From a virus (lineage: Duplodnaviria > Heunggongvirae > Uroviricota > Caudoviricetes): DNA of 47,736 bases. Positions 19,678 to 20,279 of this stretch are shown here, piece after piece (within the stretch, counting starts at the first letter, position 1; the number at the start of each line of letters is the position of its first letter). The stretch lies in IMG/VR virus record IMGVR_UViG_2778261460_000004; one strand, written 5' to 3'. A program made the position numbers and the translations under genes. The notes beneath the pieces were generated by a model. The model did no database searches. It was not told the origin of the DNA and was given only the letters and a program-made list of their open reading frames with translations.

Positions 19678-19753
19678 GGCCCTTTAGCTCAGTGGTGAGA
19701 GCGAGCGACTCATAATCGCCAGGTCGCTGGTTCAAATCCAGCAAGGGCCACCA
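19678..19753 (+). tRNA. tRNA-Ile2-like (anticodon CAU; ileX/ileZ-like), could formally be Met
   Basis: 76 nt GGCCCTTTAGCTCAGTGG...CTCATAA anticodon loop...TTCAAATCC...AAGGGCCACCA; one mismatch in anticodon stem. Confidence 0.8.
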
Positions 19754-19754
19754 A

Positions 19755-19831
19755 TCGCCACTAGCTCATCAGGAAAGAGCGTCAACCCTTTAAGTTGAGT
19801 GTGCGAGGTTCGAGTCCCCGGTGGCGGTCCA
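19755..19831 (+). tRNA. tRNA-like gene, atypical (anticodon loop CCUUUAA, possibly Lys-UUU or a degenerate Arg tRNA)
   Basis: Acceptor stem TCGCCAC/GTGGCGG, T-loop TTCGAGT, 3' CCA present; C at position 33 and one T-stem mismatch make the assignment uncertain. Confidence 0.5.
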
Positions 19832-19833
19832 GT

Positions 19834-19909
19834 GCCGACTTAGCTCAGTAGGTAGAGCAACTGACTTGTAATCAGTAGGTCACCAGTTCGATTCCGGTAG
19901 TCGGCACCA
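19834..19909 (+). tRNA. tRNA-Thr (anticodon UGU)
   Basis: 76 nt GCCGACTTAGCTCAGTAGGTAGAGCAACTGACTTGTAATCAGT...AGTCGGCACCA; anticodon loop CTTGTAA. Confidence 0.8.
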
Positions 19910-19912
19910 TAT

Positions 19913-19987
19913 GCGGGCATCGTATAATGGCTATTACCTCAGCCTTCCAAGCTGATGATGCGGGTTCGATTCCCGCTGCCCGCTCCA
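19913..19987 (+). tRNA. tRNA-Gly (anticodon UCC), glyT-like
   Basis: 75 nt GCGGGCATCGTATAATGGCTATTACCTCAGCCTTCCAAGCTGATGATGCGGGTTCGATTCCCGCTGCCCGCTCCA. Confidence 0.9.
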
Positions 19988-20279
19988 GTTAGAGTCTTTC
20001 AGTCTGCGATGATGGGAAATCCCGGAGTGACTGAAAGACGTTTAGGTTATGAATGATCGCCTTTTTTTGCAAAATTGCTGTGCAGAAATACTAACCTTCG
20101 GGCAGGCGATCATTCATAAGCACTCTGCTTTTATTCCGATTAACTGTGGGTGGTTTGTTGGATAGAGTGCTTTCCTTACTGTATATATCGTTTCGCCCGC
20201 TTTTGCGGTTTTTTCTTTTTAAATCCCTTTCATTTCTCAGTGTAAAACTACGCCATCCGTTATTTGCGGAGGTGAGGCT

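What the first reader, a model, noticed from the sequence alone, without database searches (positions are those of the whole stretch)
19678..20279. Four-tRNA array in the late region with an empty toxin-cargo slot and long inverted repeats
The tRNA array (Ile2-like CAU, an atypical second tRNA, Thr-UGU, Gly-UCC) lies between Q and the holin. In Stx phages, stxAB sits at exactly this position downstream of phage tRNAs; here the 290-bp gap holds no ORF. It does contain an 11-bp perfect inverted repeat (19994-20004 / 20029-20039) right after tRNA-Gly and a 15-bp perfect inverted repeat (20047-20061 / 20105-20119). The second tRNA has C33 and a T-stem mismatch, so it may be a pseudo-tRNA or an unusual decoder.
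Basis: partly seen in the sequence, partly recalled or inferred. Interest (0 to 1): 0.4.

Follow-up and report, generated by a model that had tools for sequence, protein, structure and literature searches.

The report
Prophage tRNA array plus unannotated RNA
The "empty slot" after four prophage tRNA genes holds a conserved, never-annotated structured RNA with its own promoter and terminator, and the odd second tRNA belongs to a tRNA-like family in which only the anticodon loop is hypervariable.

Summary
There are four tRNA genes at the stated coordinates, and both inverted repeats are exact (one is 16 nt, not 15). tRNA2 has C33 and an A:C T-stem mismatch.

tRNA1 is identical to the Stx-phage ileZ. 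tRNA3 and tRNA4 are identical to E. coli K-12 thrU and glyT. The same block occurs in about 9-10% of complete E. coli genomes, so the array itself is ordinary and already annotated.

Two things are not ordinary:
- **The gap is not empty.** Compensatory changes and G.U asymmetry support it. It abuts a tRNA 3' end in 82 of 97 contexts. It occurs in lambdoid prophages of several Enterobacteriaceae genera. It has no Rfam family, and I found no literature on it.
- **tRNA2 is an unusual argN homologue.** Across relatives its body is conserved, but its anticodon loop has 18 alleles of 5, 6 or 7 nt.

A conserved promoter precedes tRNA1, which makes the region an autonomous non-coding unit. The RNA's function is inferred, not shown. 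The repeats are not terminators, and no toxin remnant is present. Interest is moderate.

The parts
19640..19668 (+). Sigma-70-type promoter of the tRNA unit: -35 TTGCAG (19640-19645), 17-bp spacer, -10 TATTAT (19663-19668), about 9 nt before tRNA1
   Evidence: An alignment of 39 distinct upstream regions keeps TTGCRN, 17 bp and TATTAT/TATCAT at a fixed distance from tRNA1, while the flanking sequence differs completely. The window copy matches only 8 of 12 consensus positions, so the consensus scan did not list it. The promoter is inferred, not shown.
19678..19753 (+). tRNA1: tRNA-Ile2 type (anticodon CAU), equivalent to ileZ
   Evidence: ARAGORN. Rfam tRNA 72.5 bits. 100% identical to the annotated ileZ of Stx2a phage F349. 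PGAP calls it tRNA-Ile.
19755..19831 (+). tRNA2: argN-family tRNA-like gene. Here the loop is CCUUUAA (UUU with C33), with an A51:C63 mismatch, U1.G72 and U73
   Evidence: ARAGORN calls Lys-UUU. Rfam scores only 39.6 bits. It is homologous to argN (UCG) with a remodelled anticodon arm that keeps its pairing. Across relatives there are 18 loop alleles of 5-7 nt on a conserved body.
19834..19909 (+). tRNA3: tRNA-Thr(UGU), an exact copy of host thrU
   Evidence: ARAGORN. Identical to K-12 thrU. The same sequence occurs in 55 related contexts.
19913..19987 (+). tRNA4: tRNA-Gly(UCC), an exact copy of host glyT
   Evidence: ARAGORN. Identical to K-12 glyT. The same sequence occurs in 61 related contexts.
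19994..20039 (+). SL1 of the gap RNA: the 11-bp inverted repeat extended to 13 pairs, a K-turn-like internal loop (C20007-G20027; bulge G20008 A20009 U20010; G20011.A20026 and A20012.G20025; U20013.G20024), then a 4-bp cap helix
   Evidence: helices 1-2, 97-98% of cells paired, 2 pairs with compensatory changes. The loop nucleotides are invariant or conserved at 90% or more in alignments A3 and A4. The K-turn assignment is my reading against the published consensus. It has not been tested.
20047..20119 (+). SL2 of the gap RNA: the 16-bp inverted repeat closes a three-way junction containing the hairpin UUUUUGCA-AAAUUGCUG-UGCAGAAA and a small CC-UUCG-GG hairpin. This is the universal core of the family
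   Evidence: SL2 is present in every relative, including those that lack SL1 or SL3.
20120..20170 (+).
   Evidence: Helix 7 has 4 of 8 pairs with compensatory double changes.
20197..20220 (+). Weak intrinsic terminator: CCGC-UUUU-GCGG, then U6-C-U5
   Evidence: Its hairpin is -6.6 kcal/mol here, against -13.7 and -11.5 for the commoner alleles GCCCGC/GCGGGC and GCGGGU. Nearly every relative has a terminator 20-30 nt after SL3, although these are not homologous between clades. It falls below the consensus scan's 5-pair minimum.
20280..20495 (+). Phage-21-type class II holin S, first gene of the lysis cassette. It marks the downstream boundary and is not part of the RNA unit
   Evidence: Pfam PF04971, E = 1.4e-35.

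Best explanation
Window 19640-20220 is a self-contained non-coding transcription unit (a non-coding "moron"). It sits in the late-operon leader of a lambdoid E. coli prophage with a phage-21-type lysis cassette.

**Layout.** A conserved sigma-70 promoter is followed by four tightly packed tRNA genes (spacers of 1-3 nt). Next comes a three-hairpin RNA of about 185 nt, a short linker and a weak intrinsic terminator. The P21-type holin gene follows. The segment from the tRNA-Gly 3' end to the terminator is about 230 nt.

**The tRNAs.** tRNA1 (ileZ), tRNA3 (a thrU copy) and tRNA4 (a glyT copy) are ordinary functional decoders of AUA, ACA and GGA. The phage uses these codons about 1.5-2 times more often than the host.

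**tRNA2.** It belongs to the argN family of phage tRNA-like genes. Its cloverleaf body is conserved but its anticodon loop is free to vary. In this allele it reads UUU with C33. It is most likely a poor decoder or not a decoder at all. Its tRNA shape may be retained as an RNase P processing signal, or it may have a non-decoding role.

**The gap RNA.** I infer the following steps:
- The RNA is co-transcribed with the tRNAs.
- Processing of the tRNA-Gly 3' end frees its 5' end.
- In the lysogen it ends at the terminator.
- It accumulates as a stable RNA that acts in trans, either as an Hfq/ProQ-type regulatory RNA or as a protein-binding RNA.
- During lytic growth, Q-modified polymerase reads through it into the lysis genes.

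**Shown.** The tRNAs, the RNA-level conservation on the + strand, the linkage to tRNAs, and the conserved promoter and terminator motifs.

**Inferred.** Transcription, processing, stability and any trans-acting function.
For: **tRNAs.** Searches give the four tRNA genes. tRNA1 is identical to ileZ. tRNA3 and tRNA4 are identical to thrU and glyT and stay identical in relatives whose neighbouring RNA has diverged by about 24%. Codon use in the window is ATA 8.6, ACA 13.7 and GGA 11.7 per thousand, against roughly 4.3, 7.1 and 7.9 in K-12 (the host values are from memory).

**Gap RNA, structure.**
- Divergent homologues (73-80% identity) keep all helices.
- In alignment A3 (41 sequences), 98.4% of cells are paired and 9 pairs show compensatory changes. 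The slid controls reach at most 6 pairs.
- In alignment A4 (32 sequences, 17 of them found independently of the RNA), 11 pairs show double changes. None of 500 shuffles reach this, and the slid controls reach 3-6.
- G.U pairs fill 238 cells against 15 A.C cells, so the RNA is on the + strand.

**Gap RNA, not coding.** Indels in the T-run shift the reading frame between near-identical copies. The HK639 copy is in a different frame.

**Linkage to tRNAs.** A tRNA 3' end abuts the element in 82 of 97 unique contexts. Of 40 arrays found only by a tRNA2 pattern, 30 carry it.

**Transcription signals.** The promoter motif is conserved upstream of tRNA1 despite unrelated flanks. A terminator follows SL3 in nearly all variants.

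**Niche.** The same Q-to-holin leader holds known Hfq-binding sRNAs. STnc100 lies next to the element in HK639, Fels-1 and others. PasD, PasA and PasC occupy the same niche (PMC8550237; bioRxiv 10.64898/2026.05.13.724894).

**tRNA2.** There are 18 loop alleles against 4 per stem strand. One identical 72-nt body carries six different loops. AAA is not enriched in the phage, but AGA is enriched 3.3-fold. That fits an ancestral Arg-UCU role, which is still seen in L011 and L133.
Against: - No expression, processing or binding data exist for this RNA.
- The window's promoter matches only 8 of 12 consensus positions, and its terminator is a 4-bp hairpin.
- The RNA is larger and more structured than typical seed-type sRNAs. 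Its conserved unpaired stretches are spread over three hairpins.
- I found no convincing target complementarity within the window.
- Most of the covariation separates two or three clades, so the number of independent events is small.
- SL1 and SL3 are each dispensable in some relatives. Moron ORFs split the element in Fels-1 and L085. Some copies may therefore be decaying.
- The CCUUUAA allele of tRNA2 is the commonest in E. coli (45 loci). That could mean it is functional rather than degenerate.
Confidence: 0.6

Rival explanations
1. Cis-acting 5' stabiliser or processing element. After RNase P and RNase E excise the tRNAs from the long late transcript, the downstream lysis and late mRNA would start with a 5' monophosphate. 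A stable hairpin placed right at that new 5' end would protect it from 5'-end-dependent RNase E decay. On this reading the repeats are selected as helices, not as a trans-acting RNA.
For: A stem begins within a few nucleotides of a tRNA 3' end in 82 of 97 contexts. In variants lacking SL1, SL2 moves up to the tRNA. The element is always upstream of the lysis cassette, whatever the Q or holin family. The stems are kept by compensatory change.
Against: Long unpaired stretches are invariant: the K-turn-like loop, UUUUUGCAAAAUUGCUGUG and GGUGGUUUGUUGG. A simple protective hairpin would not need them. The element is followed by its own terminator. In HK639, L018 and L070 it is separated from the lysis genes by other modules, such as STnc100 or a methyltransferase operon. 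Three hairpins are more than protection needs.
Confidence: 0.22
2. Counter-defence module against tRNA-targeting immunity (PARIS AriB, P2 Old, PrrC-type anticodon nucleases). tRNA2 would be a cleavage-resistant Lys-UUU decoder or a nuclease decoy whose loop diversifies in an arms race. The Thr copy would replenish a targeted tRNA. The linked structured RNA would bind or sponge a nuclease.
For: AriB's main targets are tRNA-Lys(UUU), Thr(UGU) and Asn(GUU). It cleaves at U36AAUC|A41, and U39A, A41C or U16C block cleavage (PMC12409363). tRNA2 here has G39 U40 U41 and C16. Arrays in relatives carry Thr(UGU) almost always, and Asn(GUU) in HK639 and L081. Variation is restricted to the loop on an identical body. 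Thr copies in L116 and L042 have lost the 3' CNG motif and shortened the stem, which are the changes reported to confer Old resistance (PMC12445682). Anticodon-loop mutations in phage tRNAs have been proposed as nuclease escape (PMC10264068).
Against: The window's Thr and Gly copies are host-identical. Host tRNA-ThrU gave little or no protection against Old (PMC12445682, section 40). Loops of 5-6 nt cannot decode. C33, U73 and the A:C mismatch look like decay. No defence or anti-defence protein is linked to the locus. Nothing ties the three-hairpin RNA to any nuclease.
Confidence: 0.12
3. One reading: an empty cargo slot whose inverted repeats are simply terminators or RNase III-type processing sites left where a toxin or other moron used to be.
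For: The slot is positionally equivalent to that of stx2AB. No conserved ORF is present. Perfect helices of 11-16 bp could be nuclease substrates.
Against: Neither repeat is followed by a U-tract. The sequence is a conserved family with covariation and invariant loops across genera, not debris. No similarity to stx or other coding sequence was seen. The helices are shorter than the roughly two helical turns typical of RNase III substrates (this last point is from my own knowledge).
Confidence: 0.05
4. A DNA-level element: a protein-binding palindrome, a recombination site, or the relic of an integrative element that targeted tRNA-Gly.
For: HK639 keeps only the 3' half of tRNA-Gly, starting in the anticodon loop. 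That is the usual crossover point of tRNA-targeting integrases (my own knowledge). Morons are repeatedly inserted between the modules.
Against: The strand asymmetry of 238 G.U cells against 15 A.C cells cannot be explained by DNA palindromes. The helices contain conserved asymmetric internal loops. No integrase is nearby.
Confidence: 0.03

Closest known systems
Stx-phage ileZ-argN-argO tRNA array (933W and Sp5-type phages)
   Same: It sits in the same place, downstream of Q and upstream of the cargo and lysis genes. ileZ is 100% identical. Slot 2 is homologous to argN. The promoter-like motif upstream is shared.
   Different: Slot 2 carries UUU with C33 instead of UCG. argO is replaced by exact copies of host thrU and glyT. 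The array is followed by a structured RNA instead of stxAB.
STnc100 (RF02076), PasD and PasA/PasC: Hfq-associated sRNAs of lambdoid prophages
   Same: They occupy the same niche (the Q-to-holin leader, same strand as the late genes). They are of similar size (about 170-210 nt for STnc100 and PasD) and end at an intrinsic terminator. STnc100 lies directly next to the element in HK639, Fels-1, L070, L064, L121 and L109 (PMC8550237; bioRxiv 10.64898/2026.05.13.724894).
   Different: There is no sequence or covariance-model similarity. The new RNA is fused to a tRNA 3' end. It has a K-turn-like motif and a three-way junction. Hfq binding is unknown.
tRNA-precursor-derived RNAs: the 3' external transcribed spacer of glyW-cysT-leuZ (an sRNA sponge) and the stable species 1 and 2 RNAs of the phage T4 tRNA cluster (cited from my own knowledge)
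   Same: The RNA lies immediately 3' of the last tRNA of a polycistronic tRNA transcript and ends at the operon terminator. It would be released by tRNA processing. Like the T4 RNAs, it is a conserved phage RNA of unknown function embedded in a tRNA cluster.
   Different: It is much longer and more structured than the 3'ETS of leuZ. It shares no sequence similarity with these RNAs. Processing and function have not been tested here.
Nuclease-evading phage tRNAs (T5 tRNA-Lys against PARIS; phage tRNA-Thr against P2 Old; mycobacteriophage tRNAs against VapC)
   Same: It is a phage-borne tRNA whose anticodon arm differs from the host's at positions known to matter for cleavage (G39, U41 and C16 against AriB's requirements). 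Variation is concentrated in the anticodon loop (PMC12409363, PMC12445682, PMC10264068).
   Different: Those tRNAs keep a canonical 7-nt loop, U33 and a fixed anticodon. Here the loop varies in length and in anticodon, C33 is present, and resistance and decoding are untested.

Membership tests
Canonical elongator tRNA (applied to tRNA2, 19755-19831) | Cloverleaf with a 7-bp acceptor stem, D arm, 5-bp anticodon stem, T arm and an encoded CCA end | tested here: met
   ARAGORN calls it. The Rfam tRNA model scores 39.6 bits against a gathering score of 29. One A:C mismatch in the T stem and U1.G72 are tolerated.
Canonical elongator tRNA (applied to tRNA2, 19755-19831) | A 7-nt anticodon loop with U33 and a purine at position 37 | tested here: not met
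   The loop is CCUUUAA, so position 33 is C. Relatives have loops of 5 or 6 nt.
Canonical elongator tRNA (applied to tRNA2, 19755-19831) | The anticodon is conserved among orthologues | tested here: not met
   There are 18 loop alleles, including UCG, UCU, UUU and undecodable loops, on conserved bodies.
Canonical elongator tRNA (applied to tRNA2, 19755-19831) | Aminoacylation and ribosomal decoding | not testable with these tools
   This needs charged-tRNA sequencing or in vitro charging with LysRS and ArgRS.
Stx-phage ileZ-argN-argO array with toxin cargo | ileZ is present | tested here: met
   100% identity to the annotated ileZ.
Stx-phage ileZ-argN-argO array with toxin cargo | argN (UCG) and argO (UCU) are present | tested here: not met
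   Slot 2 is homologous to argN but reads UUU. argO is absent and is replaced by thrU and glyT copies.
Stx-phage ileZ-argN-argO array with toxin cargo | stxAB or another protein cargo lies downstream of the tRNAs | tested here: not met
   There is no conserved ORF between 19988 and 20279.
Intrinsic (Rho-independent) terminator (applied to the two inverted repeats) | A G+C-rich hairpin immediately followed by a U-tract | tested here: not met
   The sequence after 20039 is GUUUAGG and after 20119 is GCACUCU. The scan lists nothing there. A separate weak terminator lies at 20197-20220.
Known prophage sRNA families (STnc100, PasA-D, AgvB, AsxR, IsrK and others) | A match to the family's covariance model or sequence | tested here: not met
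   Rfam 15 gives no match in the gap at the gathering threshold or at E <= 10, either in the window or in the HK639 copy. The Pas probe sequences are absent even allowing up to 6 mismatches.
Known prophage sRNA families (STnc100, PasA-D, AgvB, AsxR, IsrK and others) | Located in the Q-to-lysis leader on the late-gene strand and ending in a terminator hairpin plus U-tail | tested here: met
Known prophage sRNA families (STnc100, PasA-D, AgvB, AsxR, IsrK and others) | Expression and Hfq- or ProQ-dependent stability | not testable with these tools
   This needs Northern blots, RIL-seq or CLIP in a strain that carries the element.
tRNA-operon trailer RNA (3'ETS type) | Lies directly 3' of the last tRNA of a polycistronic tRNA unit and ends at the unit's terminator | tested here: met
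   A tRNA 3' end abuts the element in 82 of 97 contexts. The promoter sits upstream of tRNA1 and the terminator downstream of SL3.
tRNA-operon trailer RNA (3'ETS type) | Released by RNase E or RNase P processing and active in trans | not testable with these tools
   This needs 5' and 3' end mapping and genetics.
Kink-turn motif (SL1) | A C-helix, a 3-nt bulge, tandem G.A/A.G pairs, then an NC-helix | tested here: inconclusive
   The sequence fits the consensus: C20007-G20027, bulge GAU, G20011.A20026, A20012.G20025 and U20013.G20024. These positions are invariant or conserved at 90% or more. The consensus is recalled from my own knowledge, and there is no structural test.

The most novel reading that the evidence does not exclude
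The slot-2 tRNA-like gene with its hypervariable, often undersized anticodon loop, together with the K-turn-containing RNA fused to the tRNA array, forms an RNA-only counter-defence cassette of lambdoid phages. It would act against tRNA-cleaving immune systems such as PARIS, P2 Old or PrrC-like anticodon nucleases. The tRNA-like RNA would serve as a decoy or an escape decoder whose loop evolves in an arms race. The structured RNA would serve as a nuclease-binding inhibitor.
Probability: 0.1. Interest if true: 0.8.

Novelty: new member of a known kind. Interest (0 to 1): 0.5.

Why it matters
The tRNA array itself is routine. Two points could matter:

- **A missing RNA family.** About one in ten complete E. 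coli genomes, and prophages of Shigella, Enterobacter, Citrobacter, Phytobacter, Yokenella and Salmonella (Fels-1), carry a covariation-supported structured RNA that no annotation pipeline or RNA family database names. It lies in the late-gene leader, where toxins and virulence-linked sRNAs are carried. It therefore adds to the catalogue of prophage RNA cargo and may affect host regulation in lysogens, including ST131 and other ExPEC lineages.

- **A tRNA-like gene with a loop-only hotspot.** The loop changes in sequence and length while the body stays fixed. This offers a tractable test for current ideas that phage tRNAs are shaped by anticodon nucleases. The simpler alternative is that the tRNA shape is kept only as a processing signal.

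Tried and rejected
- **Rfam.** I scanned the window at the gathering threshold and scanned the gap and the HK639 copy at E <= 10. No family covers the gap.
- **PasA-D sRNAs.** They share the niche, but their probe sequences are absent from the window.
- **EPEC E2348/69 candidate.** An sRNA candidate next to a pseudo-tRNA-Gly in prophage PP10 is unrelated.
- **Small protein.** The 38-aa ORF at 20049-20165 is rejected. T-run indels shift its frame between near-identical copies, and HK639 uses a different frame.
- **Terminator role for the repeats.** Rejected, because no U-tract follows them.
- **Base-pairing targets inside the window.** Only chance-level 10-12-mers were found.
- **Literature.** Searches for sequence strings of the RNA and for HK639 found nothing on this region. 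The ileZ/argN/argO search was swamped by unrelated words.
- **Anti-Old role for the window's Thr copy.** Rejected, because the copy is host-identical and host tRNA-ThrU does not protect (PMC12445682).
- **T-box-like or put-like antiterminator.** I considered these because of the K-turn-like motif, the GGGUGGU stretch and the downstream terminators. I dropped them: there is no model match, and constitutive read-through into a holin would be lethal in a lysogen.
- **Not done.** I did not build a covariance model. nhmmer already recovered the family in all held loci.
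Full report
**What is there.**

- Met/Ile2-CAU at 19678-19753
- Lys-UUU at 19755-19831
- Thr-UGU at 19834-19909
- Gly-UCC at 19913-19987

The Rfam tRNA model scores them 72.5, 39.6, 73.8 and 64.9 bits. The second one stands out.

The two inverted repeats are exact. One is 16 nt rather than 15. The + strand of 19988-20225 folds much better than shuffled sequence, with z = -5.0.

**Gene context.** Pfam identifies the surrounding genes:
- a DUF1133/antitermination-Q protein at 17366-17920
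- an N6/N4 DNA methyltransferase at 18579-19628
- a phage-21 holin at 20280-20495
- DUF1327, a lysozyme and Rz further downstream

The array is therefore in the late leader of a lambdoid prophage. It lies directly downstream of a methyltransferase, not of Q.

**How common it is.** The 651-bp block is present at 80% coverage or more in 493 of 5,426 complete E. coli genomes. PGAP annotates tRNA-Ile, tRNA-Lys (not always), tRNA-Thr and tRNA-Gly there. The 292-bp gap occurs in 540 genomes and is never annotated. Four cultured E. coli phages carry it.

**The three ordinary tRNAs.**
- tRNA1 is 100% identical to the ileZ of Stx phages.
- tRNA3 and tRNA4 are 100% identical to K-12 thrU and glyT.
- They stay identical in 55 and 61 related contexts, even where the neighbouring RNA has diverged by about 24%. 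This points to purifying selection or repeated conversion.
- The window uses ATA, ACA and GGA 1.5-2 times more often than K-12 (the host values are from memory).

The classical codon-supplement explanation fits these three genes. Host-identical tRNA-ThrU does not protect against P2 Old (PMC12445682), so this Thr copy is not a counter-defence device.

**tRNA2.**

It is a homologue of Stx-phage argN (UCG). Its anticodon arm has been remodelled from TCAGC-CTTCGAA-GCTGG to TCAAC-CCTTTAA-GTTGA, and the pairing is kept. The A:C mismatch is shared with argN.

In related arrays, slot 2 is the only variable member. I collected the family with an independent pattern and found:
- 18 different loops of 5, 6 or 7 nt
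- only 4 alleles for each 5-nt stem strand
- one identical 72-nt body carrying six different 5-nt loops

A canonical Arg-UCU version exists in L011 and L133. AGA is 3.3-fold enriched in the phage, whereas AAA is not. An ancestral rare-Arg role is therefore plausible.

The window allele has C33, U73, the A:C mismatch and a private U1.G72. It looks like a poor decoder. However, neutral decay would not confine change to the loop. Three explanations remain open:
- The tRNA shape is retained as an RNase P signal in an array with spacers of 1-3 nt.
- The loop diversifies under pressure from anticodon nucleases.
- The gene is a functional, nuclease-resistant Lys tRNA. Its G39, U41 and C16 differ from what PARIS AriB needs (PMC12409363).

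**The gap.**

Phage HK639 has a 75%-identical copy downstream of its Q gene. It sits after a tRNA-Asn and a truncated tRNA-Gly, and it shows compensatory changes in both repeats.

Exact-word scans of IMG/VR and of one genome per species, followed by nhmmer, recovered more than 100 copies. They come from E. coli, Shigella, Enterobacter, Phytobacter, Yokenella and Citrobacter prophages, plus a split, degenerate copy in Salmonella Fels-1.

RNAalifold predicts three stem-loops:
- **SL1 (19994-20039):** the 11-nt repeat plus a 4-bp cap.
- **SL2 (20047-20119):** the 16-nt repeat closing a three-way junction.
- **SL3 (20120-20170):** the third repeat.

Pair counts support this structure:
- On 41 distinct copies, 98.4% of cells are paired and 9 pairs show double changes.
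- On 32 sequences, 17 of which were found without reference to the RNA, 11 pairs show double changes. None of 500 shuffles reach this, and the slid controls give 3-6.

G.U pairs outnumber A.C by 238 to 15. The constraint therefore acts on a + strand RNA, not on DNA.

The mechanical 38-aa ORF is not conserved in frame.

SL1 contains an invariant internal loop that fits the kink-turn consensus. This is my reading and is untested. SL2 is the universal core, and SL1 or SL3 is missing in some relatives.

**Transcription unit.**

A promoter-like motif (-35 TTGCRN, 17 bp, -10 TATTAT/TATCAT) lies at a fixed distance upstream of tRNA1. It appears in 39 distinct upstream contexts whose flanks are otherwise unrelated.

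Nearly every variant has an intrinsic terminator 20-30 nt after SL3, and these terminators are not homologous between clades. The window's version is the weak end of a polymorphic series.

A tRNA 3' end abuts the element in 82 of 97 contexts. Of 40 independently found arrays, 30 carry it.

Together this describes a non-coding moron: promoter, tRNAs, trailer RNA, terminator. Transcription, processing and stability are inferred.

**Comparison with known RNAs.**

No Rfam family matches the gap. It is not PasA-D. I found no literature on it.

The niche is well known for RNA cargo. STnc100 lies directly next to the element in HK639, Fels-1 and others. PasD, PasA and PasC, AgvB and AsxR occupy equivalent positions (PMC8550237; PMC4104026; bioRxiv 10.64898/2026.05.13.724894).

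Functionally, the closest analogues are tRNA-operon trailer RNAs (the 3'ETS of leuZ) and the stable RNAs of the T4 tRNA cluster. I cite these from my own knowledge.

**Verdict.**

The array is ordinary and already annotated, and the slot is not an empty toxin site. It holds an undescribed structured RNA family. The atypical tRNA belongs to a tRNA-like family with a loop-only hypervariability that I cannot yet explain.

My preferred mechanism is a stable RNA processed from the tRNA transcript and acting in trans. I put about 0.8 on it being an RNA-level functional element and about 0.4 on a trans-acting role. The main rival is a cis-acting 5' stabiliser of the late mRNA. A counter-defence role is the most novel reading that the evidence does not exclude.

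Noticed in passing
window 15177-15351 (+) and 4783-4834 (-): A sok/hok-type antitoxin RNA (110 bits) and a DicF sRNA (75 bits) lie elsewhere in the prophage. They mark it as a Qin/DLP12-like lambdoid element rich in RNA cargo.
   Followed up: no
L003 (HK639) 2818-3023; L209 (Fels-1) 1273-1486, 1687-1809 and 2810-3028; also L064, L070, L109, L121: STnc100 (RF02076) copies lie immediately beside the new RNA in the Q-to-holin leader of several phages. Fels-1 has three copies.
   Followed up: partly
L209 (Salmonella phage Fels-1) about 1810-1940 and 2501-2575: Fels-1 carries a relic that fuses the 5' part of the tRNA2-like gene to the 3' part of tRNA-Gly. It is followed by SL1, then a moron ORF (STM0906.1n), then a degenerate SL2 without SL3. 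L085 has the same kind of insertion between SL1 and SL2.
   Followed up: partly
L116 and L042, tRNA-Thr(UGU) copies: These two relatives have ...AATCATCAGG... instead of ...AATCAGTAGG.... The change destroys the 3' CNG motif and shortens the anticodon stem. Changes of this type are reported to make phage tRNA-Thr resistant to P2 Old (PMC12445682).
   Followed up: no
L116 and L137, slot 4: glyT-derived copies have altered anticodons: UAC in L116 and UUC in L137. Anticodon changes are therefore not strictly limited to slot 2.
   Followed up: no
window 20197-20220 and the equivalent position in E. coli-type relatives: The 3' arm of the terminator is polymorphic: GCGGGC, GCGGGU, GCGGUU (this window) and GCGUUU. 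Hairpin stability runs from -13.7 to -3.3 kcal/mol. This is either drift or tuning of read-through into the holin.
   Followed up: partly
L003 (HK639) 2501-2553: HK639 retains only the 3' half of tRNA-Gly, starting in the anticodon loop, directly upstream of the RNA. This resembles the footprint of recombination at a tRNA anticodon loop.
   Followed up: no
window 18231-19628, and L018/L042: A small helix-turn-helix-like ORF is paired with an N6/N4 DNA methyltransferase. In the window the pair lies upstream of the tRNA unit. In L018 it lies downstream of the RNA. The modules of the late leader are therefore shuffled.
   Followed up: no
window 18415-18432 (+): A terminator-like hairpin (GCCTTCCGCAGTGAGGGC followed by a T-run) overlaps the end of ORF 18108-18428, between Q and the methyltransferase. 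It is a possible tR'-type terminator.
   Followed up: no
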